Below, piece by piece: positions 1,363 to 30,679 of a stretch of 33,680 nt of DNA. The stretch's first letter is position 1. The number at the start of each line of letters is the position of its first letter. The DNA is from a virus (Duplodnaviria; Heunggongvirae; Uroviricota; Caudoviricetes). Location: IMG/VR virus record IMGVR_UViG_2526164670_000016, positions 1-33,680 of that record; one strand, 5' to 3'. The position numbers and the translations under genes are program-made. The notes beneath the pieces are model-generated. The model had not been told where the DNA came from, made no database searches, and worked only from the letters and a program-made list of their open reading frames with translations.

Positions 1363-1446
1363 TTAATTTCGATTATTTTTCCCGGATGGAAAATTCTTAG
1401 AAACCGATCACATACAGCTGTATTTATTAAGGTTATCATCCGTTTC

Positions 1447-1533
1447 GCTGAAAAACATAACCCATAAAATGCTAGCTGTACCAGGAACCACCTCCTTAGC
1501 CTGTGTAATCTCCCTTACACGGGCTTATTTTTT
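1447..1533 (+). ncRNA. cyaR: CyaR (RyeE) Hfq-dependent small RNA, about 87 nt
   Basis: Sequence GCTGAAAAACATAACCCATAAAATGCTAGCTGTACCAGGAACCACCTCCTTAGCCTGTGTAATCTCCCTTACACGGGCTTATTTTTT matches my recollection of CyaR, including the CCUCC seed-like motif and the terminator hairpin (CCTGTGTAA / TTACACGGG) plus U-run. Confidence 0.8.
1507..1533. other. P2-type attachment core (attL/attR copy), 27 bp, overlapping the 3' end of cyaR
   Basis: AATCTCCCTTACACGGGCTTATTTTTT is the reverse complement of the 27-nt P2 att core AAAAAATAAGCCCGTGTAAGGGAGATT as I recall it; prophage genes begin immediately to the right. Confidence 0.6.
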
Positions 1534-2174: not shown

Positions 2175-3899
2175 TCAGGCTATCAGGGGACCGTATTTGC
2201 TTTTCAATGTATCGGTTTTAGTGGCCGCTGCGGTGAACTGCGCAGCCTGCCCGCTGGCCCCTGTATTGGGGTGAGTATGTGACGCGGCGGTCTCTGCCAG
2301 TTCCCTCACCACGTCCAGGGTGTCAGTGAGTAGTGTCAGTACGTTAATTTCTTCGCTTCCCAGTTTTACCACCGGGGCAATCAGCTGTTGCGCCTGGGCC
2401 ACACTTCGGCGGATACCGCTGATTTTCTCAGTCAGTGCGCCGCTGACGTTTGACGTGACATTCCCTTTCACGTCGTCTGTAACATCGCCCGCGACGTCCC
2501 GTTTTGCGTTCCGGCCAACACTGACGGAATTGTCCTTGCTGCAGGTTACTGTCAGGTTGCCGGATGTGCCGATACTGTAATCACCCTCGCTGATATGGAC
2601 CACCGCCCCGGCCAGAAGAGTGGCCGTGCCAAGCACGGTTGTTTTATCCGTTGCCTGGACCGTAGTTTCACGGACAACCACTTTGCGGATCTCTTCGTCG
2701 GTGGTGACTTCGCGCATCATGGAGTTTTCGCGGATTGTCTGGTCCGTCTGGCGTTCCCAGTCTCCGGCAACCGTCACGCGCTGCGATACACCATCGCGCT
2801 GTTGCTGCAACTGCTCGCCGGGTTTAACCGCTGGCAGGTTATGACCCTCCGCCATAATCTGGCGCACGAAGGGCTTATCCTGCCGCCCCTCAGTGAACCC
2901 GATTTCAACCAGCGTGCCAGGGGGCGGAAACTGGAACATTCCCGACTCGCTGCCCGCCATTGGTACAGGTAGCGGAACGGCAGAATAAACCGGCGTATTT
3001 GCGGCTGGCTTGCCGTATTCGTCAAGCAGCTGGAGATCCACGGCATAGCGCGGGCGGAATGGATCGGCAATATTACCCCCTGAAACATCCTCGCTTGGCG
3101 CTTCCACCCTGGCGAATTTTGGAAGATGCAGGCCGCTTGCCAGCTCCGGGAATGCGTTTTCAATCTGCCGCTGAATGGGTGATTTTTGCAATGGCTGGCC
3201 GTTGGCTTTGTTGCGTGGCTGCCAGGTGATTGTCATGTCGTCGTTATTTAGCCGGACCTGGTTTAACCGCTGGCCGTTCACCTCAGCACCCGGGCGCAGG
3301 CTCTGAATCATCGGCACAACCATTGAATTGCCGCCTGCCGATGCCTGGCTAAATTCGTGCGGGATCTCTACTGGTTTACCCGCAAAAAGACTGTGCTCAG
3401 CAGCACCGACGAAGACATCCCCGTCCGGCAGCTGATACCAAAGATAATCCGTCATTGAAAATGCTCGGCCCAGACTGGCAAAAAGCTGGTAGCCCGTGCC
3501 GCTGTGCGTAAAGTGGGGGATCGGTTTATCTGCATAAGCAGCGCCGACCGGCGTTGTGACGGTCAGCCCGCTTTGCTCACTTATCCAGTCAGTAATCTGG
3601 CGCAACGTTGGATGCTGGAAAGAACACGGCCACAATTTATCAAAGATGCCGACCAGCTCACGCACGAACAACCGGCATGTTCCATTATCAGCAGGCTGTG
3701 ACCGTTCGACGTACCCGGTAAACCAGCGCAGGACCAGACCATCATAACCAACATCGATACGCACCATTTTGCCGGTGTAATCTGTCTCTGTCCCCGCCGT
3801 AATAAACCCCCGACCGCACGCGTTCAGCTCCAGCACGATATTGCAGTCAATCAGATGGACCGGATCAGAGGAAAGGTACAGGCGTTTAATTGGTTTCAT
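2175..3899 (-). CDS. Baseplate hub-spike fusion protein (gpD/gp27-like hub fused to gpV/gp5-like spike), 574 aa
   Basis: Last gene of the tail operon next to att; length is roughly P2 D plus V; C-terminal segment (GTLVEIGF..., ...HTHPNTGASGQ) resembles spike proteins from memory. Family assignment not confirmed by search. Confidence 0.55.
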   Translation of the reverse strand: MKPIKRLYLSSDPVHLIDCNIVLELNACGRGFITAGTETDYTGKMVRIDVGYDGLVLRWFTGYVERSQPADNGTCRLFVRELVGIFDKLWPCSFQHPTLRQITDWISEQSGLTVTTPVGAAYADKPIPHFTHSGTGYQLFASLGRAFSMTDYLWYQLPDGDVFVGAAEHSLFAGKPVEIPHEFSQASAGGNSMVVPMIQSLRPGAEVNGQRLNQVRLNNDDMTITWQPRNKANGQPLQKSPIQRQIENAFPELASGLHLPKFARVEAPSEDVSGGNIADPFRPRYAVDLQLLDEYGKPAANTPVYSAVPLPVPMAGSESGMFQFPPPGTLVEIGFTEGRQDKPFVRQIMAEGHNLPAVKPGEQLQQQRDGVSQRVTVAGDWERQTDQTIRENSMMREVTTDEEIRKVVVRETTVQATDKTTVLGTATLLAGAVVHISEGDYSIGTSGNLTVTCSKDNSVSVGRNAKRDVAGDVTDDVKGNVTSNVSGALTEKISGIRRSVAQAQQLIAPVVKLGSEEINVLTLLTDTLDVVRELAETAASHTHPNTGASGQAAQFTAAATKTDTLKSKYGPLIA

Positions 3900-19642: not shown

Positions 19643-21454
19643 ATGGCTAAATATTCCGATGAATTAAAAGAAGCGGCCCGCACGCTTTATATAAAAAGCT
19701 GGACGCCGAAAGATATTGCGCAGGAACTGAATATTCCACCGCGTACAATTTACCACTGGGCTGACGTCGGGAAGTGGGCATCACTGCAGCCTGTTGAATC
19801 GGTGGAAAATGTCATCGCCCGCCGTATCGACCAGCTCTCCCGCCGCGAGAAAAAAACAGCGCTGGAACTGGAAGAACTGCGCGATCTAATTGCTCACCAT
19901 GTGAAACTCATGGCGCAGCGCAACAAGCACGCCGAAAAGCTGGCAGAAATTCAGGCCCAGAAAACGGCTTATGATGGTGAAGGGTACTGCCTCAGCAGCG
20001 CAGGCGGGGAACCAGGGGAAAGAAAGCGCCGGTATAAGAAAAACGACGTTTCCGGTATTACAGCGGAAATGCTCGACACCTGGGCGCAGGAACATCTCTT
20101 CGAGTACCAGCTGCACTGCCGCGAACATAAAGGCGAAGACTGGCGCTTCATTCTGAAAAGCCGCCAGGTGGGTATGACCTATTATTTCGCCTGGGAAGCA
20201 TTCGAAGACGCCGTCATTACCGGTGACAACCAGGTCTTTTTCTCTGCAAGCCGATCCCAGTCGGAAATCTTCCGCGAATACATCGTCCAGATCGCCCAGA
20301 ACCATTTCGGCGTGACGCTGACGGGTAAAAATATCCGCCTCAGTAACGGCGCAATACTGCGCTTTTTGTCCACGAACGCCAGCACCGCGCAGGGCTTTAA
20401 CGGCCACCTGTATGGCGATGAGGTTTTCTGGATCCCGAAATTCACGCGCCTGCATGAAGTTGCCAGCGCAATGGCAACGCATAACAAATACCGCACGACC
20501 TACTTTTCGACGCCCAGCGCGAAAACGCACCAGGCTTACCCGGTCTGGACTGGCGAAGCCTGGCGCGGGGACGACCCGAAACGCAAAGGTGTGAAGTTCC
20601 CGAACGAAAGCGAAATGTGCCAGGGCATTCTTTGCCCGGACCAGATCTGGCGCTACATCATCACGATGGAAGACGCTATCGAAGGCGGCCTCGGGGCGCT
20701 TGTCGATATTGAACGGCTGCGCAACAAATACAGCCCGACCGCGTTCGCCATGCTCTACATGTGCCAGTTTGTTGACAGTAAGGACGCGGTTTTCAAGTTC
20801 TCCGCGCTTGTCGGCTGTGAAGTGGACCGGGCCACATGGGGCGACTTTGATCTGACCGCTACGCGGCCTTTCGGCAATCGCGAAGTATGGGCAGGTTTTG
20901 ACCCGTCGCGCTCCGGCGACAACTCAACATTTGTGTTAATCGCGCCCCCTATAGAGGACGGCGAGCGCTTCCGCGTGCTGGCCGTCTGGCAATGGCAGGG
21001 TTTTAACTTCAGCTGGCAGGCCGACCAGATAAAGCAGCTTATGCGCCGCTTTAACATCACTTACATCGGGATCGATACAACCGGCATAGGTAAAGGCGTT
21101 TATGACCTTGTCAGCAAATTTGCGCCACGCGAAGCCACACCAATTCTTTACAGCGTCGAAAGCAAAAACCGCCTGGTGATGAAGATGATCGACGTTGTCG
21201 AGCGTAAGCGCATCGAATGGGCAAAAGACGCCGTAGACGAAACGAACAAGGAGCGCGTCGAAATTCCGGCCAGCTTTATGGCTATCCGGCGCACGACAAC
21301 CAACAGCGGCAATGCGCTGACGTTTGTTGCCGAACGTTCAGACGCGACCGGCCATGCAGATGTTTTCTTCGCTATCTCGCACGCCGTAATTAACGAACCT
21401 ATCGATCACGAATATGACCGCCCATCGGGCTGGTACTTTGGGAAAGCAGCATGA
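19643..21454 (+). CDS. P: Terminase ATPase (large) subunit (P2 gpP family), 603 aa
   Basis: Length and P2-like position, divergent from O and followed by the portal gene with an ATGA overlap. Confidence 0.85.
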   Translation: MAKYSDELKEAARTLYIKSWTPKDIAQELNIPPRTIYHWADVGKWASLQPVESVENVIARRIDQLSRREKKTALELEELRDLIAHHVKLMAQRNKHAEKLAEIQAQKTAYDGEGYCLSSAGGEPGERKRRYKKNDVSGITAEMLDTWAQEHLFEYQLHCREHKGEDWRFILKSRQVGMTYYFAWEAFEDAVITGDNQVFFSASRSQSEIFREYIVQIAQNHFGVTLTGKNIRLSNGAILRFLSTNASTAQGFNGHLYGDEVFWIPKFTRLHEVASAMATHNKYRTTYFSTPSAKTHQAYPVWTGEAWRGDDPKRKGVKFPNESEMCQGILCPDQIWRYIITMEDAIEGGLGALVDIERLRNKYSPTAFAMLYMCQFVDSKDAVFKFSALVGCEVDRATWGDFDLTATRPFGNREVWAGFDPSRSGDNSTFVLIAPPIEDGERFRVLAVWQWQGFNFSWQADQIKQLMRRFNITYIGIDTTGIGKGVYDLVSKFAPREATPILYSVESKNRLVMKMIDVVERKRIEWAKDAVDETNKERVEIPASFMAIRRTTTNSGNALTFVAERSDATGHADVFFAISHAVINEPIDHEYDRPSGWYFGKAA

Positions 21455-22512
21455 CAAAGAAACAGCGTAAAAATAAAAAATTCGGGTCCATGACCGGCAG
21501 CCGGGTTGAAACCTTCACGCCAGGGCGCGGAAGCGTGATCACATTTGGCGAACCAGAACCCATCCTGACGACCGGCACGGATTATCACAATATCTGGTAT
21601 GACAATGAGTATGACCACTGGCGACTTCCGATTGATCGCCTGGCGCTGGCCCAGTTGCCGAACCTTAACGGCCAGCATGGTGGTGTACTGTATGCGCGGC
21701 GCAATATGGTGGCCGGTGGCTACATCGGCGGCGGCCTGACGCCTGACCAGGTCGAACAGGCTGTCTTTGATTACCTGCTGTTTGGTGACGTTGCTATCCT
21801 GAAAATTCGTAACGTATTCGGGGAAGTGATCGACCTGCTGCCGCTGCCGTCGCTGTATCTTCGCTGCCGAAAAGACGGGTCGTTTGCTGTTTTGCAGGAA
21901 GGGCCAGCACTTATCTATGACCCGGAAGACATCGTCTTTTTTAAAATGTACGACCCGCGCCAGCAGGTGTATGGCCTGCCTGACTATATTGGCGGCATCC
22001 ATTCGGTGTTACTCAACAGTGAGGCAACCATCTTCCGACGCCGTTACTACAACAACGGGGCGCACATGGGCTTTATTCTCTATACCAGCGATCCGAATCT
22101 TACTCTGGAAATGGAAAACGAAATCAAAGAGAAGATCGCCCAGTCCAAAGGGCTGGGTAACTTCCGAAATATGTTTATCAACATCCCGAAGGGCGACCCG
22201 GAAGGGGTTAAAATCCTGCCGGTGGGCGAAGTCAGCGCAAAGGACGAATTTGCCAACATCAAAGGGATCACCGCACAGGATATCTTTACCGCTCACCGTT
22301 TCCCCGCTGGCCTGGCGGGTATCATCCCGACCAACGGCGCGGTAATGGGCAACCCTGAAACCGCCCGCACAACCTATCGCAAGGATGAAGTTATCCCCTT
22401 GCAGCGCAAGCTAATGAACGGCGTCAACAATGACCCGGAGATCCCCGCACACTTGCACCTGGTTTTTGACGTGGATATCCCGGCAATTACCACCGAAAAG
22501 GGCGAAAAATGA
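21451..22512 (+). CDS. Q: Portal protein (P2 gpQ family), 353 aa
   Basis: Size and position after the large terminase gene, with translational coupling. Confidence 0.85.
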   Translation: MTKKQRKNKKFGSMTGSRVETFTPGRGSVITFGEPEPILTTGTDYHNIWYDNEYDHWRLPIDRLALAQLPNLNGQHGGVLYARRNMVAGGYIGGGLTPDQVEQAVFDYLLFGDVAILKIRNVFGEVIDLLPLPSLYLRCRKDGSFAVLQEGPALIYDPEDIVFFKMYDPRQQVYGLPDYIGGIHSVLLNSEATIFRRRYYNNGAHMGFILYTSDPNLTLEMENEIKEKIAQSKGLGNFRNMFINIPKGDPEGVKILPVGEVSAKDEFANIKGITAQDIFTAHRFPAGLAGIIPTNGAVMGNPETARTTYRKDEVIPLQRKLMNGVNNDPEIPAHLHLVFDVDIPAITTEKGEK

Positions 22513-22568
22513 ACGCAGTTAAGTTAAAATCATCCCCACTGTTAGCAATGGCGTGCGGGATGGTGAAC

Positions 22569-22835
22569 ATGCGAGTTTTTAAAATTAAATGTCCTGAATG
22601 CGGCTCACCGGCCATCATTCGTAAATCTGACTGGAAAGACAAAAAACTGGCTGATTTATACTGCGCCTGCACGGAAGTTGAATGCGGCCACACCTTTGTT
22701 TTTAACGCCCAGTTTTCACATACCCTCAGCCCCAGCGGGCTGACCGGCAACAAGCTGGTTAAATTCCTGATTGACCGACTCAAGCCGGAAGAACGGCAAT
22801 TCGCGCTGGACCTGCTCAACGGCCAGACGGCATAA
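22569..22835 (+). CDS. ogr: Ogr/Delta-family zinc-finger late-gene transcriptional activator, 88 aa
   Basis: MRVFKIKCPECGSPAIIRK...YCACTEVECGH gives a C-x2-C-x22-C-x4-C motif as in P2 Ogr; ATG at 22569 with GGGATGG upstream (track ORF starts earlier at 22509). Confidence 0.75.
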   Translation: MRVFKIKCPECGSPAIIRKSDWKDKKLADLYCACTEVECGHTFVFNAQFSHTLSPSGLTGNKLVKFLIDRLKPEERQFALDLLNGQTA

Positions 22836-22837
22836 AC

Positions 22838-22869
22838 GAAGCCCGCATAAAGCGGGCTTCTTTTCATTT
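22838..22869 (+). terminator. Rho-independent terminator after ogr
   Basis: GAAGCCCGC-ATAAA-GCGGGCTTC hairpin followed by TTTTCATTT, starting 3 nt after the ogr stop. Confidence 0.65.
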
Positions 22870-22943
22870 AGAGTGATGTAATGTTATCCGCTATTTTGTT
22901 ACATTCATGGTGGATTTTGCCCTAATATCTGAGGAAAGAAGAT

Positions 22944-24299
22944 ATGCGAATGACCGCTCCAACCAAATCCTTTACTGATGGATTTTGTGAGAATGATGAT
23001 ATTTTTGAAAGAAAAAAACTCCACGATATCATTATGCGGGTTGCCACTAACGCCCCTGATAAAAGTTTAGTTTTAGCATTAGATGATAAATGGGGTAATG
23101 GGAAAACTTCATTTGTAAAAATGATGGAGTCAGAGATAAACAAAAACCACTCCGACGATTTCGAAGTCATCTATTTTGATGCTTTTAAAAGTGATTATCA
23201 GTCTGATCCATTTGTGGCATTAACTTCTAGCATATATTCTCTTATAAACAAAAGTGATGGAAAGTTAAAAACGCTATGTAAGGAACTGTTAGACATTGGA
23301 AAAAAACTTGGTGCCTCATTTGCTATAAATGGTGCGAAGTTTGCAATCAGTACACTTTCAGGTGGGTTACTATCTGGAACCGTTTTTGATAAGGCTACAG
23401 ACACAATAACTGACTCTATCTCTTCGCCCGTAGAGGAATATATAGAAAGCAAAATAAAAAATAGTGAAAGTGAAATCGCGATTATTGAGCGGTTTGGTGA
23501 TTTATTAACTAAAATTTGTGAACAAAGTGGTAAGAAAATATTTTTTATAATCGATGAGCTTGATCGTGCCCGCCCTGACTTTTCATTAGACTTATTAGAG
23601 AAAATAAAACATATATTTTCGGTTAAAGGTGTTATTTTCCTGTTGGTTGTTAATCGTGAACAATTTGAAAAAAGCATTGAATGTCGATATGGCAATATTA
23701 ACGCAAGGCTGTACCTTAATAAATTTGTCCATTACTGGTTTAGTCTTCCGAAGAGAAGCTATCTTTCTGAGGATTGTTTAAATAGATTTAAGCACTCCAC
23801 TATAAAACAATACCTTCTCACTATAGATAATGGTAATAATTTCTTCGTTCGCAATGGCTCCCTTGTAAATACGCTGGCGTATTTGTTAGAAGTCAATGGT
23901 TGTTCACTACGAGAGGCTGAGCGTTGTTACTCTGTGTTTGCAGTTATTGCAAATCCGAATAAAATAAACGAGTACAGTACCGATGCTTATAAAGTTGCAA
24001 TGGGACTAGTTGCATTTCTGAAAGTTCATAACCCTCAAATTCTATCTGATATCATATATAAGCGATATGAATTAAAAGAAATTCTACCAAAGCTATCAAT
24101 CAAAAGAGAACATTTAGAATATATCTCGGAGGTCTACTTACTTGATCACTTACTACAGTACCACTACAAATCAGATGAAGAATTAAAAAACCCTGAGAAC
24201 CAAAATCAATTTTCTGACTTACAAGGTTATTTTGGTCGAAGAGCCCCTGTTTTAGAAATGATGTTTGAAACAGTTGAAGGGTTTAATATTAGTTATTAA
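22944..24299 (+). CDS. KAP-family P-loop NTPase (PifA-like), 451 aa; candidate phage-exclusion protein
   Basis: Walker A WGNGKTS (aa 50-56) and Walker B IFFIIDELDRARPD (about aa 200) in the KAP style, with a hydrophobic insert between them (ASFAINGAKFAISTLSGGLLSGTVF); low-GC gene with its own RBS (GAGGAAAG) in the cargo island. Confidence 0.6.
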   Translation: MRMTAPTKSFTDGFCENDDIFERKKLHDIIMRVATNAPDKSLVLALDDKWGNGKTSFVKMMESEINKNHSDDFEVIYFDAFKSDYQSDPFVALTSSIYSLINKSDGKLKTLCKELLDIGKKLGASFAINGAKFAISTLSGGLLSGTVFDKATDTITDSISSPVEEYIESKIKNSESEIAIIERFGDLLTKICEQSGKKIFFIIDELDRARPDFSLDLLEKIKHIFSVKGVIFLLVVNREQFEKSIECRYGNINARLYLNKFVHYWFSLPKRSYLSEDCLNRFKHSTIKQYLLTIDNGNNFFVRNGSLVNTLAYLLEVNGCSLREAERCYSVFAVIANPNKINEYSTDAYKVAMGLVAFLKVHNPQILSDIIYKRYELKEILPKLSIKREHLEYISEVYLLDHLLQYHYKSDEELKNPENQNQFSDLQGYFGRRAPVLEMMFETVEGFNISY

Positions 24300-24346
24300 A
24301 CCGTAAAAACATTATTTGCAGGCTCTTTGCCGCCCGCACCCGCAGA

Positions 24347-24389
24347 ATCCTGCAGGCCGACGCAAACAGTTGCGACGTCCTGCAGGATT
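24347..24389. repeat. GC-rich inverted repeat (AATCCTGCAGG ... CCTGCAGGATT with a partly palindromic 22-nt centre)
   Basis: Perfect 11-bp arms at 24347-24357 and 24379-24389 between the convergent KAP gene and the 24394-25104 ORF. Confidence 0.5.
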
Positions 24390-24393
24390 GCAT

Positions 24394-25050
24394 TCATTCT
24401 TTTGGGGGGCGACCTTCTGCACCCGCCAGCATTTTTTGATACTCCCCGACCGGATCAAACCGCAGACGCGTGGCATCTATGCCGTGGTTTTCCCGCAGAC
24501 GTTCCCATAATTTATTCACCATCCGTGACTCGTCGGGTAATTGACGCGTTATCAACTGGCCGCCAGCACTGGCCCGATAAACTTTTCCGCCAATCTCCAG
24601 ACGGCTCCCCATTAACAGCGAAACGGCCTGAATCTCTGAAATCTCAACCGAACACAACACCGCATCTGCCAGCAGACTGGCAACCGCAGGGGCAAGCGCT
24701 GCCTGCCTAGCTTTTTCAGCCTCCGATCTGGCCTCGGTTTTTTCAACGGCAGAACGCCAGGCGACATCTAATTCGCTTCCTGGCTCATAAGGTGATCCGC
24801 TTTGCCGCCTTTTGAATGGTGTTTCACGTAGTCGCCGCATCAATTTGCGCCGCGTTGGCTGGTCCATATCTTCAAAATCGACGATTTCATCGTCTGAATC
24901 TTCTGTCGTTAACTCTCCGTCAGCTGGCACAGCCATTTCTGACATTGAAAAATCGGTGATTTTTTCGTCTTCCGTAGAGTTATTGACAGAACTCGAACTC
25001 AAACACTCTGTACATTTTTGTGCAGTATAAAAAGTCTTCATGTTGATCAT
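24394..25050 (-). CDS. Hypothetical protein, acidic N-terminal region; start uncertain (ATG at 25050 or 25041; track ORF starts at a GTG at 25104)
   Basis: Single open frame across a GC-rich segment that contrasts with the AT-rich flanking cargo genes; no strong RBS; no family recognised. Confidence 0.3.
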   Translation of the reverse strand: MINMKTFYTAQKCTECLSSSSVNNSTEDEKITDFSMSEMAVPADGELTTEDSDDEIVDFEDMDQPTRRKLMRRLRETPFKRRQSGSPYEPGSELDVAWRSAVEKTEARSEAEKARQAALAPAVASLLADAVLCSVEISEIQAVSLLMGSRLEIGGKVYRASAGGQLITRQLPDESRMVNKLWERLRENHGIDATRLRFDPVGEYQKMLAGAEGRPPKE

Positions 25051-25118
25051 CAGTGCATAGACTTTTATGATTAGTTCAAAATGGCATTGTGCAGTATGCT
25101 CCACAACGGGTGAGACTT

Positions 25119-25682
25119 ATGAACATTCAAACCGAGACAATTTTTAGCATTGGGCATGGTGCTCGCAGGCTAGAAGAATTTATAGCTTTGTTGAAAAAAT
25201 ATCATATCAGATATGTTATAGACGTTCGTTCAAAACCCAGATCTAGGTTTCACCCACATTTTAATCGTGAAGCTTTGACTCTTCATTTGAAAGAAGCAGG
25301 CATTCGATACGTATTCATGGGAGAACAATTAGGTGGTATTCCTAAAGATGATCAATGTTACGATGAAGACGGACGGGTTGATTACGAAAAAATAAAAAAC
25401 AAAGCTTTTTTCCATGAGGGAATTGAGAGAATAAAAACGGCTCATTCAAAAAATTTAAAAATTGCATGTATGTGTAGCGAGCTATCCCCTTGCGATTGCC
25501 ATAGAAGTAAATTAATTGGTGATTACTTGCAATCACTCGGGATAGAAATGCAGCATATAGATAAGAAAGGAGATATTAGTTCACAAAATGACGTAATGAA
25601 GGAAGTGCTCGGCTCAAACGGTGAATTGGACCTATTTTCGGACAACACCAAAAAATTAAAATCAAGAAAATCGTATCGTTGA
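25119..25682 (+). CDS. DUF488-like protein, 187 aa
   Basis: N-terminal IFSIGHGARRLEEFIALLKK...VIDVRSKPRSRFHPHFNRE and later CMCSE..PCDCHR match what I recall as the DUF488 signature; ATG at 25119 with GGTGAG upstream (track ORF starts at a GTG at 25089); low GC. Confidence 0.55.
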   Translation: MNIQTETIFSIGHGARRLEEFIALLKKYHIRYVIDVRSKPRSRFHPHFNREALTLHLKEAGIRYVFMGEQLGGIPKDDQCYDEDGRVDYEKIKNKAFFHEGIERIKTAHSKNLKIACMCSELSPCDCHRSKLIGDYLQSLGIEMQHIDKKGDISSQNDVMKEVLGSNGELDLFSDNTKKLKSRKSYR

Positions 25683-25697
25683 ATAAAGGGTATTGAG

Positions 25698-26309
25698 ATG
25701 AATACTGATGTAATAATTCTTTCCAGAACAAAAATGTCTGGAGATAAAATTTGCGTAGGTGGATTAGATCTTAATAGTGGGAAGATGTTAAGATTATTGG
25801 ATAATAGAGCAAGTGCTTTGACTTCAGCTTATCCATATAGTATTGGCGAAACATACTCAATAGAGTTTGCTGAAAGGTATCAAGTAGCAGCCCCACATGT
25901 TGAAGATGTAGCTGTTTATGACTACAGCTTAGCGAAAAGTTTTAATAAAGTAGATCTAGATACTATCGTCCATAAACACTCTGGTACATATAACAATCTT
26001 AGTGAACTCTTCTCTGGAAAACTTCACTGGCAAAACTCCAAGGGATATGCTTTGGAGTCAGACCCTCCGGAATTTAGCGTTCAAATAGCAAAAATTAATA
26101 AAATCCTAGTTAGAAATGGAACTGACTTTCAAGAGTTCGGCTCACTCAATCCGCGCAAAGTTAAATATGTTGGCGAACTTGATATAAATAGACTCCCTAG
26201 TAGAATAAATCCTGGCACACCTATTAGATTTTCTTTAGCTCGACCTTGGGATAAGGATAATAATGGTATTAAAGTGTGTTATTTACAACTATCTGGAGTT
26301 TACATTTAA
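25698..26309 (+). CDS. Hypothetical protein, 203 aa, co-operonic partner of the DUF488-like gene
   Basis: ATG 15 bp after the DUF488 stop with AAAGGG..GAG upstream; AT-rich; no family recognised. Confidence 0.5.
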   Translation: MNTDVIILSRTKMSGDKICVGGLDLNSGKMLRLLDNRASALTSAYPYSIGETYSIEFAERYQVAAPHVEDVAVYDYSLAKSFNKVDLDTIVHKHSGTYNNLSELFSGKLHWQNSKGYALESDPPEFSVQIAKINKILVRNGTDFQEFGSLNPRKVKYVGELDINRLPSRINPGTPIRFSLARPWDKDNNGIKVCYLQLSGVYI

Positions 26310-26428
26310 AAATTATTTAATATTAGAATAACGCGCTCAGCATTAACTTATTTTATAAAATGCAGAGCGCCTTATGAAATATAACTATTCAAACCTTTCG
26401 TTGAATCAATATCATTTATATTCGAAAA

Positions 26429-28927
26429 TTACTCTATCGCCTTTCTCCAGCGACTGAGCAACTCATCAACTCTATGCCTTGCCAGCGTTTTACGCCAGTT
26501 CATATCCGCACCGGTCACAATCAACTCCCCTGTAATTTGGTTGGCACGGTAAGTAGTATCAAGCGCAGTCACTTCTCTCCCTTGTACCAGCTTTAGCACT
26601 TGCACAGGTGTGATTTGGATCTTTCTTAACTTCGCCCAATCCAGTACCTGAGCAACTAGGGCTGTAACGTTCTTATCTACTACGCTTTCTTCCTGGCGGA
26701 GCGCATACGCGGCTTTTAAATAGCTTTCCGCTCTAGCTCGGTTATATTCGGTGCACTCACCCACAGTGATACTGTACGCAAGTGACTCAAACTCATCTGC
26801 TGCTGAAACACGCTGCGTTTGTTTGTGGATTTTCAGGCCTTCAGCAATCTCTTTTTTCTGTTCCCACCTTAATTTGCCGATTTCAAATTGCTCTGGAGAT
26901 TCATCCCTAGTCGGCAAAGTCAGATCTGGCCGATAAACAACCTGGCAATCTGTTTGTTTTTTGTACTCAGTACAGTTATTGACACGAGTCCTAGAGGGCG
27001 CAGACGCGCCCTTAAGGTCAACAGCAAGGTCAACGGCCTTGCCTGAATCGTTAATAATCTCCGGTTTCTTACGCACAATCCGATAAGAATGTAGGCGGGT
27101 TTCAACTGGCGGCATGAAGATGTGAGGCATCACCAGTCCTTTAATTAAGGTCTGGTATTCACCGTGATCGTTTGGCTGGTCTTTTTGTTGATACCAGATG
27201 CGCAGTGGCAGATCACAACGGGCAACCAACGCCCCACCCTGCAATTGGGTGTATTGCTGCCAGTCGCCAGCATCCGCTGCACGGTGCAGCTCGGCAAACA
27301 ACGGGTTAATCTGGTCTGCCTTTTCCTGATTGCGGAATCGACGTAGCTCGCGCCAGACTGAAACAGGCGCACCACCAAGGAACTGGAATTGACGAATACC
27401 CCAGCATGATGCCCAGGCCGTCGCATGTTTTGAGGTTTCTTTTAATGGTCTGCCGTTCTCGTCATCTGTTTCACCGTCGAGCGCGTAACCATCAATATTC
27501 TTGCTGATATACTTCACCACATAACCGGTGGCGCTTCCGATTTCATGATCGATAGGCTTCATTTCGAAACGTGGACGAATGCCATGCTTACCCTGCAATT
27601 CGTCCTCATCCTCGCGGGTGGCGTAGTCCTTCATCACTTCCAACAATTCAGCTGAATGTTCTGGTAAGGAAAACAGAAGACCATGCCAGTGTGGCGTTCC
27701 GTCGTGGTGAGATTCAGCCACGCGAAGCCCAAACACCTGAATATCGCGGCGGGCCAACTCAGCGCGGATCTGTTGCCAGACTCGATTAAGATAACGTTGC
27801 GTGGTTCTTGGACTGGCCCCGTTCCATTTGCCATTACGATGACCGAAGACGGTATAGGCATGATATTTGGAAGGTGCTGTCATGGTGAAAAACTGCCCTG
27901 CATAGCCACTTTCGGTAGCGACTTTCTCGAAGCCACCGATGCGAGTCATAAGCTCAACGCGGCGCAAAGCTGGGTTAGATATGCTCTTATCTATTTGCTC
28001 AATGAGTGAAATGCGTTCTTTGGTTTCCTGATCTTCCAGCTCAAGCCTGGCCATAATCGCCCGGCTGCGTTTCCGCCTAGTGTCCCACTCTTCAACATGA
28101 TGCTTACTGCAATATGGCGCAGCGCCTCGCTTCACATCACCAAAAGCGATGTGCAGATGTTCACGCCAGCGCGTGCCGTACTTTTTAAGATTTCGGTGCC
28201 AGTAGCGATCATCCAGCATCTTGCTGATACCGGTCGTCGCCTCATCAATAAACAATTTACCCCGGCAATACTTTTCCCAGTTCGGTGGCGTTAGAAAGAA
28301 AAGACGCGCAAGTTGTGCCGCCTCGGTGTAAAGGTATTCGGCATACCGGCGATCACTTTGCGTCTCTACCGTTTCGTGTACCTCGCTCAGCACCGACCGC
28401 ATATAGATCGCAATATCCTGCGCTAATAGTTCAACATCTTCCGGCGTGTAGTCCGGCAGCCTGTTGAATCTCTCAACTAAACCGTTAAGGGTATCAAATA
28501 CATGGTAAAGCGGGTTTAACTTTTTGAATGCTGTTTCAGCTTGTGATTTTGCGTCTTCGGTCATCGCAATTGCGTATTGAGCATTCACCATATTGATGGG
28601 CGGCAGCTCTCTGCGGATGATGTCTCTTACTGCCTGACGGGCAATATGTCGGCCCTTCATCGTGTGAATACTGTCAATGCGAGAAGCCAAGCGCAGGCGT
28701 ATAAAGCGAGGAAGTCTCGAAAGGGTAAGTTTCACCCACGACAAAAACTCTTGTTCTTGACCCAATTCGAATAGATCAACAACAGGAGTCTTATCAACAT
28801 AAATAGCTGCATTAGGCTTTTGCCACTCGTAATCGTAATTGATATCAGCAGCAGAATTAGACATACCCCTGCCGCCAACTAACTGGCGGCGATTGTTACT
28901 CGGCCGAACAAACGCGGAGTCTGTCAC
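26429..28927 (-). CDS. A: Replication initiation endonuclease (P2 gpA-like rolling-circle initiator), 832 aa from the GTG at 28927
   Basis: HUH motif (DGTPHWHGLLF) and catalytic tyrosine motif (GYVVKYISKNIDGYALDG) as I recall from P2 gpA; GTGA overlap with the Dam stop, alternative ATG at 28864. Confidence 0.85.
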   Translation of the reverse strand: MTDSAFVRPSNNRRQLVGGRGMSNSAADINYDYEWQKPNAAIYVDKTPVVDLFELGQEQEFLSWVKLTLSRLPRFIRLRLASRIDSIHTMKGRHIARQAVRDIIRRELPPINMVNAQYAIAMTEDAKSQAETAFKKLNPLYHVFDTLNGLVERFNRLPDYTPEDVELLAQDIAIYMRSVLSEVHETVETQSDRRYAEYLYTEAAQLARLFFLTPPNWEKYCRGKLFIDEATTGISKMLDDRYWHRNLKKYGTRWREHLHIAFGDVKRGAAPYCSKHHVEEWDTRRKRSRAIMARLELEDQETKERISLIEQIDKSISNPALRRVELMTRIGGFEKVATESGYAGQFFTMTAPSKYHAYTVFGHRNGKWNGASPRTTQRYLNRVWQQIRAELARRDIQVFGLRVAESHHDGTPHWHGLLFSLPEHSAELLEVMKDYATREDEDELQGKHGIRPRFEMKPIDHEIGSATGYVVKYISKNIDGYALDGETDDENGRPLKETSKHATAWASCWGIRQFQFLGGAPVSVWRELRRFRNQEKADQINPLFAELHRAADAGDWQQYTQLQGGALVARCDLPLRIWYQQKDQPNDHGEYQTLIKGLVMPHIFMPPVETRLHSYRIVRKKPEIINDSGKAVDLAVDLKGASAPSRTRVNNCTEYKKQTDCQVVYRPDLTLPTRDESPEQFEIGKLRWEQKKEIAEGLKIHKQTQRVSAADEFESLAYSITVGECTEYNRARAESYLKAAYALRQEESVVDKNVTALVAQVLDWAKLRKIQITPVQVLKLVQGREVTALDTTYRANQITGELIVTGADMNWRKTLARHRVDELLSRWRKAIE

Positions 28928-29910
28928 CGCTCAGACTCCACGCCACATGTCGCAGCCGTTGCCAGCATTTCGTTATAGGTCGCGTTACCCATTACAGGGC
29001 CACAATCAGGGCAACCACCACCACCGGCACGACCACAGCCGCTACACAATTTGAGGACGCCGATCACTTCACTGGCGGCCCCTCGGGTAATGGCGTTCGC
29101 GCTAACAGAACGGTTAACGCTGATTTCCTGGAAGTTGAAACAGCGATAAATCTCGCGGGTGACTGGGGTGTCGCTATTGGACAGGATCACCGGCGAACCA
29201 GTAAGGCGGTTAATATCCAGCAGGACGGCAGCTAACTGGCGATGTTCTTTAATGCCAAACGGGGCTGTGTGATATTGGGTGAAATTAGCTGTTTCGCTTG
29301 TTGGCAGGTATGGCGGATCGCAGTAGATAACCGCGTCACTACCAATCATGATTTTTAACGTGCTCTGGAAATCGCAGCACACGAAAATGGCTTTCGTGTC
29401 GTTAGCTTTTTCAGAGAATAAACGGATCTGTTCTTCCGGGAAGTAAGGCGGGGTTTTGTGACGCCCAAAGGGAACGTTATATCCACCCTGTTGGTTGTAG
29501 CGTACTACGCCGTTATATCCGTGACGGTTCAGGTAAAGAAATTGTGCTGCACGAAGAATCTTGCCCGCGTCCGGCCCATCTTCAAACACACTGCGCAATG
29601 ACAGTAGGTCACGTGCGCGGGCGTTGAAATCATCGCGGATCCATTTATAGCCGTCTTTATCGCCGTACACTTTAAACAGTGGGCGAGCAGCGTCGATCAC
29701 CGCATCAGGCCAGCGGGTTATCTGGCGATACAGGTTAATTAAATCTGGGTTGATATCACCCAGGATATAACGGCGATATTCAGTATTGAGGAAAACAGAA
29801 GCACCGCCGACAAACGGTTCCACCAGGCAATCGGCTTTCGGCAGAATCGGCAGCAAATCAGGCATAACGCGGCCTTTACCACCGGGCCATTTAACGAGAG
29901 ATCGAATCAT
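28924..29910 (-). CDS. DNA adenine methyltransferase, Dam-like, with a Cys-rich C-terminal extension, 328 aa
   Basis: WPGGKGRV...EPFVGGASVF (SAM-binding) and IYCDPPY (catalytic DPPY) closely resemble E. coli Dam from memory; extra tail CSGCGRAGGGGCPDCGP; GGAG RBS before the ATG at 29910. Confidence 0.85.
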   Translation of the reverse strand: MIRSLVKWPGGKGRVMPDLLPILPKADCLVEPFVGGASVFLNTEYRRYILGDINPDLINLYRQITRWPDAVIDAARPLFKVYGDKDGYKWIRDDFNARARDLLSLRSVFEDGPDAGKILRAAQFLYLNRHGYNGVVRYNQQGGYNVPFGRHKTPPYFPEEQIRLFSEKANDTKAIFVCCDFQSTLKIMIGSDAVIYCDPPYLPTSETANFTQYHTAPFGIKEHRQLAAVLLDINRLTGSPVILSNSDTPVTREIYRCFNFQEISVNRSVSANAITRGAASEVIGVLKLCSGCGRAGGGGCPDCGPVMGNATYNEMLATAATCGVESER

Positions 29911-29980
29911 TTTTACTTTCTCCAGGGTGCAAGAAGCCCGACGCGTTAGCGCCTGTTTCTTTTTTGTGGGTAGTTAGTTG

Positions 29981-30376
29981 TTAATTTACTGCGTTATCTG
30001 GCGCGGGTGGTTTGTCGCGTATCGCCTGAATTTCGGCGCGTGGTGCGGCGTAGTCCTCAAATTCCCACGGCATTGATGCTGCAAATTCGGAAAGGCGCTT
30101 AATGCCCATCAAAAGGCACGTTTGCTCCTTTTCGGTTAGATTTTCGTAAGTACAACCCAGCTGTTTGGCGGTCAGCTTCGGCATTCCGACTATGTATCTG
30201 GACGCATCGTTTGCCAGGATGAAAATCACCTTTTTGCAGGCATCATCCAGGCGGTTAAAACGGGTTGCAGTGTCATTCACGCGTGAGGCGTTCAAACTGG
30301 CTTGCAGCCGCGCCCGTTGCTCTAAGAACTGGCGGCGACCTGGCTGTTGTTCTGTCTTATCCATCAACATAACCAC
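29981..30376 (-). CDS. Hypothetical early-operon protein, up to 131 aa (sits where P2 has gene B, but not recognised as B)
   Basis: ORF in the early operon between the 97-aa ORF and the Dam gene; several candidate starts; no family recognised. Confidence 0.4.
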   Translation of the reverse strand: MVMLMDKTEQQPGRRQFLEQRARLQASLNASRVNDTATRFNRLDDACKKVIFILANDASRYIVGMPKLTAKQLGCTYENLTEKEQTCLLMGIKRLSEFAASMPWEFEDYAAPRAEIQAIRDKPPAPDNAVN

Positions 30377-30385
30377 CTCCCCGAA

Positions 30386-30679
30386 CTACGCAAAGATGCC
30401 CATTAAGCGGGAAAACCAGCGGCGCTTATTACGCGGGCGCGACATGAACGGTACACGGTAGTTTTTAACAAATTGAACATCTAACGCTTTCGGCTGGAAG
30501 AACCTCCCGTCCGGGGTTTCAATCCAGCCACGTTGATGCTGACGGTGGGTGATCTGCTGGCCGTGGGTGAGCAGGCTGGCGAGTGAAGGGCACTGTGTTA
30601 AGTCCATGATGATCTCCGTCATATTGAAAAGATGCCGGGATATAACCCCACGCCCGGCACGTGTTTCCTGTGATAACAT
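30386..30679 (-). CDS. Hypothetical early-operon protein, 72-97 aa depending on start
   Basis: ORF with an internal ATG (MDLTQ...) preceded by GGAG; basic C-terminus; no family recognised. Confidence 0.3.
   Translation of the reverse strand: MLSQETRAGRGVISRHLFNMTEIIMDLTQCPSLASLLTHGQQITHRQHQRGWIETPDGRFFQPKALDVQFVKNYRVPFMSRPRNKRRWFSRLMGIFA

What the first reader, a model, noticed from the sequence alone, without database searches (positions are those of the whole stretch)
24300..24400. GC-rich palindrome between convergent cargo genes
A perfect 11-bp inverted repeat with a partly symmetric 22-nt spacer (24347-24389) sits in a GC-rich patch that contrasts with the AT-rich genes around it. It may be a bidirectional terminator or insulator, a protein-binding site, or part of the packaging (cos) region expected in this interval.
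Basis: seen in the sequence. Interest (0 to 1): 0.35.

Follow-up and report, generated by a model that had tools for sequence, protein, structure and literature searches.

The report
Orphaned replication-gene 3' RNA hairpin
The palindrome is real: it is the conserved RNA stem-loop, followed by a small terminator hairpin, that normally ends the replication-initiator gene A in one group of P2-like phages. Here it survives on a cut-off remnant of that gene, so it is an ordinary transcript-end signal in a fossil setting and not the packaging site.

Summary
The inverted repeat exists at 24346-24389: a 20-bp stem with 2 mismatches and a 4-nt loop, whose outer 11 bp are perfect. It is the only such repeat in the window, and none appeared in 200 simulated sequences.

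It is not between two cargo genes. The GC-rich patch 24318-24997 is 95% identical to Salmonella phage SI7. It holds the last 199 codons of SI7-type replication gene A plus that gene's 3' untranslated module.

In 30 of 45 related loci, the gpA stop codon is followed 2-7 nt later by this hairpin (HP1), a near-invariant linker and a 6-8-bp hairpin (HP2). A U-run often follows.

HP1 covaries strongly: 13 of 20 pairs change on both sides. It pairs only on the gpA-sense strand (63 G·U against 2 A·C), which points to RNA.

Best reading: a transcript-end or stability module of gene A that marks the fixed edge of the defence-gene hotspot. In this window it is stranded by a replication-module replacement.

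The cos reading is not supported. There is no P2 cos similarity, and relatives with near-identical portal and ogr genes lack the module.

Side finding: the gene-A remnant begins at the predicted ori nick, within one base.

The parts
24346..24389 (-). HP1, the reported palindrome: a 20-bp stem with 2 mismatches and a 4-nt loop. It is read as RNA on the minus strand and starts 4 nt after the stop codon of the gene-A remnant.
   Evidence: Searches give the coordinates. One search shows 13 of 20 pairs changed on both sides and 94% of cells paired. One search gives the G·U asymmetry, another the independent RNAalifold structure, and a covariance-model hit of 88 bits on the minus strand.
24338..24345 (-). 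Linker CUGCGGGU between the two hairpins, unpaired and nearly invariant among relatives.
   Evidence: these columns are at least 90% conserved; linker plus HP2 are 92-93% identical, against 68-76% for the adjacent coding DNA.
24318..24337 (-). HP2: a 6-bp G+C-rich stem (one G·U pair in this copy) with the conserved 8-nt loop GGCAAAGA. In relatives it is the terminator-like hairpin of gene A and the last conserved element before the variable cargo.
   Evidence: flags it as terminator-like on the minus strand. Searches show homology ending just after it and a U-run in about half of the lineages. flags it as a terminator in L063.
24305..24309 (-). U-run (UUUUU on the minus strand). It lies 7-8 nt beyond the HP2 stem, which is not the canonical spacing for an intrinsic terminator.
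   Evidence: Read directly. The same displaced arrangement occurs in the KAP-carrying relatives L046, L047 and L052.
24394..24994 (-). Remnant of SI7-type replication gene A: the last 199 codons plus the stop codon at 24394-24396. It is 95% identical in DNA to Salmonella phage SI7 gpA.
24969..24994 (-). The 3' half of the old replication origin, GAGTTCTGTCAATAACTCTACGGAAG. Homology to intact gpA genes starts at 24994, which is the predicted gpA nick within one base.
24995..25088 (.). Donor-derived AT-rich DNA joined to the half-origin. It holds a promoter-like site (25043-25071, plus strand) for the DUF488-DuOB pair.
22944..24299 (+). Cargo gene convergent on the hairpins: a KAP-family P-loop NTPase, matching the PADLOC candidate defence family PDC-S20.
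   Evidence: PF07693, E = 2.6e-40. PDC-S20, E = 6.7e-70.
22838..22864 (+). Intrinsic terminator after the ogr/delta-like gene. It is the opposite fixed edge of the cargo hotspot.
   Evidence: homology among relatives ends at 22863-22869; the equivalent site is flagged in L063. One search gives the coordinates.
25089..26309 (+). Second cargo block, brought in with the new gpA: a DUF488 protein (PDC-M45B) and a DuOB protein.
26429..28927 (-). The intact gpA now in use. It is only 34% identical to SI7 gpA. It has its own origin-like motif at 26970-27011 and its own terminator-like hairpin at 26333-26370, and no HP1/HP2 module.

Best explanation
The palindrome is HP1, the first hairpin of a two-hairpin RNA module at the 3' end of the gene A (replication-initiator) transcript in Irrigatiovirus/SI7-like P2-family phages.

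Shown:
- In intact relatives the module starts 2-7 nt after the gpA stop codon.
- HP1 is a 20-bp stem whose sequence drifts while pairing is kept, and only on the gpA-sense strand.
- After HP1 come a near-invariant 8-nt linker and a short G+C-rich hairpin, HP2.
- Homology between phages ends after HP2, where the variable defence-gene cargo begins.

Inferred:
- HP2, with its U-run where present, terminates early/replication transcription.
- HP1 is a stable dsRNA stem of about -29 kcal/mol. It would block 3'-to-5' exonucleases, or serve as an RNase III-type processing site, and so set the lifetime of the gpA message. It would also keep early transcription out of the convergently transcribed cargo.

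In this window the module no longer follows a working gene. A replacement of the replication module put in a different gpA plus two cargo genes, and left the last 600 nt of the old gene A with its 3' module stranded next to the KAP NTPase gene. Here it can at most act as a back-up stop for minus-strand read-through. It may also cap the 3' end of the convergent KAP transcript, because in this copy the stem has no G·U pairs and folds on both strands.
For: - Homology: window 24318-24997 is 95% identical to SI7. In SI7 and in E. coli prophages the same sequence sits directly after the annotated replication endonuclease.
- Distribution: a search that did not use the hairpin (gpA C-terminus protein scan) found 45 loci. 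Thirty carry the module right after the stop codon, 3 carry degenerate copies and 12 (mostly the most distant relatives) have none.
- Covariation: 93% of cells are paired, 16 of 28 pairs change on both sides, 0 of 500 shuffles reach this, and slid controls give about 35%. RNAalifold predicts the same structure on its own.
- Strand specificity: 76 G·U against 5 A·C cells. HP1 sense RNA energy is uniform, from -22 to -33 kcal/mol, while antisense ranges from -9 to -33. Sense is the more stable strand in 23 of 26 sequences.
- Terminator character: a U-run follows HP2 in about half of the lineages, and HP2 is flagged as a terminator in L063 and in the window.
- Copy number: one copy per genome, always in this position.
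- A second, only 34%-identical gpA lineage (L011) carries the same module after its stop codon.
Against: - There are no transcript data, so termination, processing and stabilisation are all inferred.
- G·T pairs are also tolerated in single-stranded DNA. The sense strand is probably the strand displaced in rolling-circle replication, so strand asymmetry alone does not prove RNA.
- The U-run is missing in several lineages and is displaced by 7-8 nt in the window, so HP2 is not everywhere a canonical terminator.
- Linker plus HP2, including the loop, are far more conserved (92-93%) than the neighbouring coding DNA (68-76%). A plain terminator does not need that.
- Twelve relatives do without the module. 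L090, a sibling of this prophage, has lost it, so it is dispensable.
Confidence: 0.6

Rival explanations
1. Single-stranded DNA hairpin used in rolling-circle replication. After gpA nicks ori, about 600 nt upstream in the same strand, the displaced gpA-sense strand folds into HP1/HP2. These then act as a lagging-strand priming or primosome-assembly signal, like the single-strand origins of rolling-circle plasmids or the phiX174 n' site.
For: - The structure is kept on the sense strand only.
- The P2 and 186 nick sites are annotated in gene-A sense orientation, so this is plausibly the displaced strand.
- Two adjacent hairpins with conserved unpaired G-rich sequence resemble priming sites.
- No P2 B-type helicase loader was noticed in the SI7 annotation.
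Against: - With DNA energy parameters, HP1 stability varies widely (-8.5 to -24 kcal/mol). With RNA parameters it is uniform.
- The U-run after HP2 and the fixed position right after the stop codon are transcript features.
- Full-length relatives with the same gpA family lack the module, and the gpA working in this window has none.
Confidence: 0.12
2. Recombination anchor at the edge of the hotspot. The conserved linker-HP2 block on one side and the ogr terminator on the other are kept alike between phages because cargo cassettes are exchanged by recombination within them. The apparent conservation would then be homogenisation rather than function.
For: - Homology between relatives ends exactly after HP2 and after the ogr terminator.
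- L061 and L062 show an empty hotspot, with only about 20 nt between the two elements.
- Linker plus HP2 are as conserved as the late-gene side and more than gene A.
- The mechanism of cargo exchange in P2 hotspots is stated to be unknown (PMC13586616).
Against: - This explains the conservation of HP2 but not the compensatory evolution and strand-specific pairing of HP1.
- The block is only about 30 nt long.
- In L090 the cargo swap used breakpoints inside the remnant (window 24515) and inside ogr, not these anchors.
Confidence: 0.1
3. Double-stranded DNA site: a palindromic operator or protein-binding site, or a bidirectional transcription insulator that works equally on both strands.
For: - In this window the stem has no G·U pairs, so both strands fold almost equally (-28.2 and -26.9 kcal/mol).
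- The hairpin lies between convergent transcription units.
- The ends AATC...GATT are invariant.
Against: - In most relatives the plus-strand arms mismatch (A·C), so the DNA palindrome is degraded while the sense RNA stem is intact.
- Stem sequence differs at most of the mid-stem positions (5 compensatory pair changes within about 8 positions) between phages whose late-gene region is 93-97% identical to SI7. That is not expected of a protein recognition site.
- No U-run directly follows HP1 on either strand.
Confidence: 0.06
4. Part of the packaging (cos) site of this phage group, lying between gene A and the cargo as cos does in phiCTX or RSA1-type phages.
For: - In an 'empty' relative the module is the largest conserved non-coding block between gpA and the portal gene.
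- HP2 plus linker is G-rich, contains AAAG and loosely recalls the P2 cohesive end (read directly).
- Its conservation level matches the late genes.
- Cargo between cos and Q is known in other P2-like phages (PMC5694545).
Against: - The P2 19-mer has no match with up to 3 mismatches, and no cos-region similarity rises above chance.
- L060, L072, L073, L040 and L041/L075 have a portal-ogr region 80-96% identical to the window but no HP2-like motif (up to 7 of 28 substitutions allowed) anywhere between gpA and ogr.
- L090 lost the module.
- HP1 varies between phages with near-identical packaging genes.
Confidence: 0.04

Closest known systems
Intrinsic (Rho-independent) terminators at operon ends of P2-family phages, for example P2 tQ and 186 t95b as annotated in GenBank
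   Same: HP2 is a short G+C-rich stem-loop at the end of a transcription unit. A U-run follows it in about half of the lineages, and the terminator scan flags it.
   Different: - A 20-bp hairpin precedes it.
- The loop and the upstream linker are conserved in sequence.
- The U-run is absent or displaced in several lineages, including this window.
Lambda sib/tI retroregulator (from my own knowledge of lambda int regulation; not tested here)
   Same: A long RNA hairpin lies just beyond a phage gene, next to or overlapping a terminator. Such a structure can be cut by RNase III and so expose the upstream message to 3' exonucleases. HP1 has the roughly 20 bp of dsRNA that RNase III needs.
   Different: There is no sequence similarity and no evidence of RNase III cleavage. 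Here the hairpin and the terminator are separate, adjacent stems, and the regulated gene would be a replication initiator rather than an integrase.
REP/BIME palindromes of enterobacteria acting as 3' mRNA stabilisers, or as translation modulators when within 15 nt of a stop codon (from my own knowledge; not tested here)
   Same: An imperfect palindrome of about 40 nt lies in a 3' untranslated region within a few nt of the stop codon, with strand-specific pairing.
   Different: It is single-copy and phage-borne: 19 of 5426 E. coli complete genomes, one place each. It has no REP consensus and no Rfam hit.
CIS terminator region between repA and oriR of plasmid R1, needed for cis-action of RepA (from my own knowledge; not tested here)
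   Same: A transcript-end element lies directly after the gene of a cis-acting replication initiator, close to its origin. P2 gpA is cis-acting, and ori lies about 600 nt upstream of HP1.
   Different: The R1 element is a Rho-dependent terminator without this architecture.
Single-strand origins and primosome assembly sites of rolling-circle replicons such as phiX174, ColE1 and pT181-type plasmids
   Same: Hairpins that form on one specific strand, the displaced one, of a replicon started by an HUH nickase.
   Different: See the rival explanation above. Energies fit RNA better, the module is dispensable in relatives, and its position is tied to the stop codon.
The gpA-gpQ defence hotspot of P2-like phages (Rousset et al. 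2022, PMC9122126; PMC13586616)
   Same: The hairpins sit at the gpA edge of exactly this hotspot, and the cargo here consists of candidate defence genes.
   Different: A term search of those two papers found no mention of terminators, hairpins or palindromes, and they leave the exchange mechanism open.

Membership tests
Intrinsic (Rho-independent) terminator | A G+C-rich stem-loop. | tested here: met
   HP2 (24318-24337) has 6 pairs, one of them G·U in this copy, and 6-10 pairs in relatives. HP1 is also a stable stem.
Intrinsic (Rho-independent) terminator | A run of U directly (0-2 nt) after the stem. | tested here: inconclusive
   In the window, UUUUU starts 7-8 nt after HP2, and no U-run follows HP1. 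In relatives a U-run directly follows HP2 in about half of the lineages and is absent in L049, L056, L069 and L011.
Intrinsic (Rho-independent) terminator | Transcripts end there in vivo or in vitro. | not testable with these tools
   No transcript data are available.
P2-family cos site | Similarity to the 19-nt cohesive end and to the core shared by P2, 186 and P4. | tested here: not met
   No match with up to 3 mismatches. BLAST of the P2 cos junction gives only chance 9-12-mers.
P2-family cos site | Present in every phage that shares the packaging genes. | tested here: not met
   Absent from L060, L072, L073, L040, L041/L075 and L090, although their portal-ogr region is 80-97% identical.
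P2-family cos site | Virion DNA ends map there. | not testable with these tools
   The SI7, SW3 and SW5 records are permuted differently, and a term search of their paper found no mention of termini or cohesive ends.
Any Rfam family | A covariance-model score at or above the family's gathering threshold. | tested here: not met
   The best hits over 24100-24600 are 9-20 bits against thresholds of 45-440. The only family found in the whole window is CyaR at 1445-1530.
REP/BIME dispersed palindromes | Many dispersed copies per genome. | tested here: not met
   One copy in the window, one per related locus, and one place in each of 19 E. coli genomes.
RNase III substrate of the lambda sib type | About two helical turns (roughly 20 bp) of dsRNA. 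| tested here: met
   The 20-bp stem length and 4-nt loop are constant in 25 of 26 variants, with 94% of cells paired.
RNase III substrate of the lambda sib type | Cleavage by RNase III, and an effect on the upstream gene that depends on rnc. | not testable with these tools
   This needs Northern blots or RNA-seq in an rnc mutant.
gpA (HUH nickase) replication origin | A hairpin followed by the nick motif ...G|GAGTYCTGTCAATAAC. | tested here: not met
   HP1/HP2 do not contain the motif. It lies 600 nt upstream, at 24969-24994, as a half-site only. The full origin block is invariant in all 45 relatives.
Single-strand origin or primosome assembly site | A strand-specific hairpin on the displaced strand. 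| tested here: inconclusive
   Strand specificity is met. Which strand is displaced is inferred only from the GenBank annotation of P2 and 186. The energies fit RNA better than DNA.
Single-strand origin or primosome assembly site | Priming activity dependent on PriA, primase or RNA polymerase. | not testable with these tools
   This is a biochemical assay.

The most novel reading that the evidence does not exclude
HP1-linker-HP2 may be more than a terminator: a sequence-specific functional RNA. One form would be a stable RNA of about 80-90 nt derived from the 3' UTR, whose invariant unpaired linker (CUGCGGGU) and HP2 loop (GGCAAAGA) contact a target or a protein. Another would be a pausing or tethering device right after the stop codon that keeps newly made, cis-acting gpA next to its own origin 600 nt upstream. 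The evidence allows this because the stems covary while the unpaired parts are more conserved than the neighbouring coding sequence, and because two gpA lineages only 34% identical both carry the module.
Probability: 0.13. Interest if true: 0.6.

Novelty: new member of a known kind. Interest (0 to 1): 0.38.

Why it matters
1. It gives a precise, recognisable landmark for the gpA edge of the P2-type defence hotspot in this phage group. Together with the ogr terminator it brackets the cargo to the base, which helps in delimiting and comparing cargo cassettes.

2. It is a clean, covariation-supported RNA structure with no Rfam family, in the 3' UTR of a cis-acting rolling-circle initiator. That makes post-transcriptional control of gpA easy to test.

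3. The context shows how a GC-rich 'island' between AT-rich defence genes can simply be a gene remnant, and warns against reading such patches as cos.

4. The remnant starts at the predicted ori nick, within one base. This is a concrete clue that the phage's own nickase, or breakage at its nick, can create the junctions that reshuffle replication and defence modules. Recent surveys leave that mechanism open (PMC13586616).

Tried and rejected
- P2 cos: the 19-mer with up to 3 mismatches and a BLAST of the joined P2 cos region gave nothing above chance. A loose resemblance between HP2 and GGCGGGGAAAGCAC (about 10 of 14 with a gap) was judged to be a G+C-composition effect.
- Rfam: only sub-threshold miRNA/snoRNA noise.
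- Dispersed-repeat idea: rejected, because the module is single-copy everywhere.
- Chimeric gpA idea (new C-terminus swapped onto an SI7-type gene): rejected. The intact gpA is only 34% identical over its aligned length (residues 153-804 of 832). The whole SI7 segment 24623-27805 was replaced.
- Donor phage carrying the new gpA and DUF488-DuOB without the remnant: not found in E. coli complete genomes, the phage records or IMG/VR. All assemblies found by exact protein look-up already have the remnant.
- Generality of nick-site junctions: partial hits in a spread sample of P2-type gpA matches in E. coli did not start at the nick, so this remains a single case.
- Synonymous against non-synonymous counts in the remnant (9:11) do not differ from those between intact genes (5:6), so they do not show whether the ORF is still used.
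- The 1994 paper that mapped the P2 nick is not held, so I relied on the GenBank features of P2 and 186, which differ by one base.
- A term search of the paper describing SI7, SW3 and SW5 found no mention of DNA ends.
- A conserved internal mismatch in HP1: it is present in only 12 of 26 variants, so it is not a defining feature.

Full report
**The observation**

The window holds a 44-nt hairpin at 24346-24389: 20-nt arms that are 90% complementary, with a 4-nt loop. The '22-nt spacer' is itself paired apart from two mismatches and the loop. It is the only inverted repeat in the window with at least 16 of 20 pairs and a short loop. None of 200 simulated sequences contained one with at least 18 of 20 pairs. 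Both strands fold better than all 200 shuffles. The GC contrast is real: 0.53-0.55 over 24300-24900 against 0.31-0.37 on both sides.

**The setting**

The window is a P2-family prophage in E. coli, next to yegQ and cyaR.
- It is 93-97% identical to Salmonella phage SI7 (genus Irrigatiovirus) across the late genes, portal and ogr-like gene (1679-22863). It is also SI7-like in 28936-30592.
- Terminase is at 19643-21454, portal at 21451-22512 and the ogr/delta-like gene at 22509-22835. An intrinsic terminator follows at 22838-22864.
- Next comes an AT-rich KAP NTPase gene at 22944-24299, matching the PADLOC candidate defence family PDC-S20.
- Then the GC-rich patch.
- Then a DUF488 plus DuOB gene pair at 25089-26309.
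- Then an intact gpA at 26429-28927.

This is the gpA-gpQ defence hotspot described for P2-like phages (PMC9122126, PMC13586616).

**What the GC-rich patch is**

Window 24318-24997 is 95% identical to SI7. The ORF 24394-25104 on the minus strand ends with 199 codons that are the C-terminus of SI7-type gpA. So the right-hand 'cargo gene' is a remnant of a replication gene, and the palindrome lies 4 nt after its stop codon. In SI7 and in E. coli prophages the same sequence lies directly after the annotated, full-length replication endonuclease.

**Relatives**

I scanned with the gpA C-terminus as a protein, so the hairpin played no part in finding loci. This gave 41 IMG/VR loci and 4 GTDB loci.
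- In 30 of the 45, the stop codon is followed 2-7 nt later by a 20-bp hairpin AAUC...[CUGG]...GAUU (HP1). L066 has HP1 only.
- After HP1 come the linker CUGCGGGU and a 6-8-bp stem with the loop GGCAAAGA (HP2).
- Similarity between phages ends after HP2 and the variable cargo begins.
- Three loci have decayed copies (L057, L059, L077).
- Twelve loci have none, mostly those whose gpA C-terminus is only 47-65% identical (L060 is the exception at 78%). Some of these (L042/L079, L082) have a plain terminator instead.
- A covariance model finds one copy per locus, one in the window (88 bits, minus strand) and none in P2.
- In 5426 complete E. coli genomes the module occurs in 19, once each, and is unannotated.
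- No Rfam family matches.

**Structure and strand**

The analysis used 26 distinct sequences (alignment A4).
- 93% of cells are paired, and 16 of 28 pairs change on both sides (13 of 20 in HP1).
- No shuffle out of 500 reaches any of the measures, and sliding the partner columns drops pairing to about 35%.
- RNAalifold predicts the same two hairpins independently.
- Between the window and the E. coli copy alone, five pairs within eight positions are changed on both sides.
- The pairing is strand-specific. On the gpA-sense strand there are 76 G·U cells against 5 A·C cells, and 63 against 2 in HP1.
- HP1 sense RNA energies are uniform, with a mean of -29.3 kcal/mol and a range of -22 to -33. Antisense energies scatter from -9 to -33. 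Sense is the more stable strand in 23 of 26 sequences.
- With DNA parameters, sense energies scatter from -8.5 to -24.

The element is therefore selected as a single-stranded structure of the gpA-sense strand, most simply the gpA transcript. The window's own copy has no G·U pairs, so it folds about equally on both strands.

**Function (inferred)**

HP2 is followed directly by a U-run in about half of the lineages. The terminator scan flags it in L063 and, weakly, in the window. In the window the U-run is displaced by 7-8 nt.

I read the module as the 3' end of the early/replication transcript. HP2 terminates. HP1, two turns of dsRNA abutting the stop codon, blocks 3' exonucleases or is an RNase III-type processing site. 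Together they keep early transcription out of the convergent cargo.

Two facts are not explained by a plain terminator:
- Linker plus HP2 are 92-93% identical in pairs whose adjacent coding DNA is 68-76% identical and whose third codon positions are 49-62% identical.
- A second gpA lineage, only 34% identical to the SI7 type and of the kind now working in this window, carries the same module after its stop codon in L011.

These facts leave room for a sequence-specific RNA role, or for homogenisation by recombination at the hotspot edge.

**Why not cos**

- The P2 cohesive end and the P2 cos region have no counterpart in the window.
- Full-length relatives with a portal-ogr region 80-96% identical to the window (L060, L072, L073, L040, L041/L075) have no HP2-like motif anywhere between gpA and ogr.
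- HP1 differs at most of its mid-stem positions between phages with near-identical late genes.

The cos site of this phage group remains unlocated.

**How the hairpin was stranded**

SI7 segment 24623-27805 comprises two small genes and gpA up to its origin. In the window it is replaced by 24995-28935, which is a different gpA plus DUF488-DuOB.
- The origin block, GTCGCC-N4-GGCGACGCTTG|GAGTTCTGTCAATAACTCTACGGAAG, is invariant in all 45 relatives.
- It matches the annotated nick sites of P2 (CTCG|GAGTCCTGTCAATAAC, nt 29892) and of 186 (nt 28576).
- The remnant's identity to intact genes starts at window 24994, the G of GAGTTC, and 24995 is a mismatch.

The remnant therefore begins at the nick, within one base, and is joined to unrelated donor DNA. 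This is what aberrant strand transfer by the nickase, or breakage at its nick, would leave. It is a single case. A small sample of P2-type partial hits showed no such pattern.

The arrangement is common in draft assemblies: L087 is 99.96% identical to the window over 7.5 kb. One sibling, L090, has since swapped the KAP gene for an nSTAND3/Mrr gene and lost HP1/HP2 along with the end of the remnant. The module is therefore dispensable in this context.

**Verdict**

The cos and protein-site readings are not supported. In kind the element is ordinary: a transcript-end hairpin module. It has not been described before, it is well supported by covariation, and in this window it is a fossil.

Noticed in passing
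window 24969-24997 (minus strand); compare L084 2880-2910, L093 2060-2095 and L043 about 2970-3030: The gene-A remnant starts exactly at the predicted gpA ori nick, within one base: ...GTTTGAGTTC|GAGTTCTGTCAATAAC. Only the 3' half of the origin is kept, joined to unrelated AT-rich DNA. This suggests a junction made by the HUH nickase itself or by breakage at its nick.
   Followed up: yes
window 24995-28935 against SI7 (L085) 24623-27805: The whole replication module was replaced. A gpA only 34% identical came in together with a DUF488-DuOB gene pair. The flanks on both sides remain 95-97% identical to SI7.
   Followed up: yes
L039-L083, about 30 nt upstream and 25 nt downstream of each match start: The origin block, GTCGCC-N4-GGCGAC hairpin plus GCTTGGAGTTCTGTCAATAACTCTACGGAAG, is identical at the DNA level in all 45 loci. 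This holds even where the gpA C-terminus is only 47% identical in protein.
   Followed up: partly
L046, L047 and L051 at 3584-3627 (gpA-sense strand): In three relatives the central part of HP1 is flipped: the loop is CCAG or CUAG instead of CUGG, and the mismatch is A·A instead of U·U. These copies are near-perfect palindromes with 0-1 G·U pairs, as if the arms are occasionally re-copied from each other by template switching.
   Followed up: partly
window 24318-24345 and alignment A4 columns 45-72: The linker and HP2, including the unpaired loop GGCAAAGA and the tandem UGCGGG-UGCGGG, are more conserved (92-93%) than the adjacent coding sequence (68-76%). This is not explained by a plain terminator role.
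   Followed up: partly
window 22838-22864; L061 and L062 about 3656-3700: The cargo hotspot is bracketed to the base by HP2 on one side and the ogr terminator on the other. L061 and L062 show the empty state, with about 20 nt between the two.
   Followed up: partly
L090 2507-5344 against window 22825-24515: A sibling prophage has an nSTAND3/Mrr-like gene in place of the KAP NTPase. It has lost HP1/HP2 and the last 120 nt or so of the remnant. The breakpoints lie inside ogr and inside the remnant, not at the hairpins.
   Followed up: partly
L011 4944-7668: A gpA of the same type as the window's intact gene carries an HP1/HP2 module 21 nt after its stop codon, with a quite different HP1 stem sequence. 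The window's own intact gpA instead has an unrelated AT-rich hairpin at 26333-26370.
   Followed up: partly
window 22944-24299 and 25089-26309: The cargo consists of candidate defence genes: a KAP NTPase (PADLOC PDC-S20, E = 7e-70) and a DUF488 protein (PDC-M45B, E = 1e-54) followed by a dual-OB (DuOB) protein.
   Followed up: no
HP1 inner stem (window 24357-24378) against the ori hairpin of SI7-type gpA: The inner stem of HP1 (CCGUCGCAA-CUGG) resembles the origin hairpin CCGTCGCCAACCGG just upstream of the nick. This may be chance or a second gpA contact site. L011 does not show the same resemblance to its own origin.
   Followed up: no
E. coli complete-genome records: In 17 of 60 sampled chromosomes the P2-type gpA segment lies at coordinates 1660-2059. 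Those records were apparently rotated to begin at a fixed point about 1.7 kb upstream, near the start of the prophage gpA gene. This is probably an artefact of start-fixing software that picks a 'replication' gene.
   Followed up: no
window 1445-1530: The CyaR/RyeE small RNA gene (100.7 bits) lies just outside the prophage end, next to yegQ. This is the known integration neighbourhood of P2-like elements.
   Followed up: no
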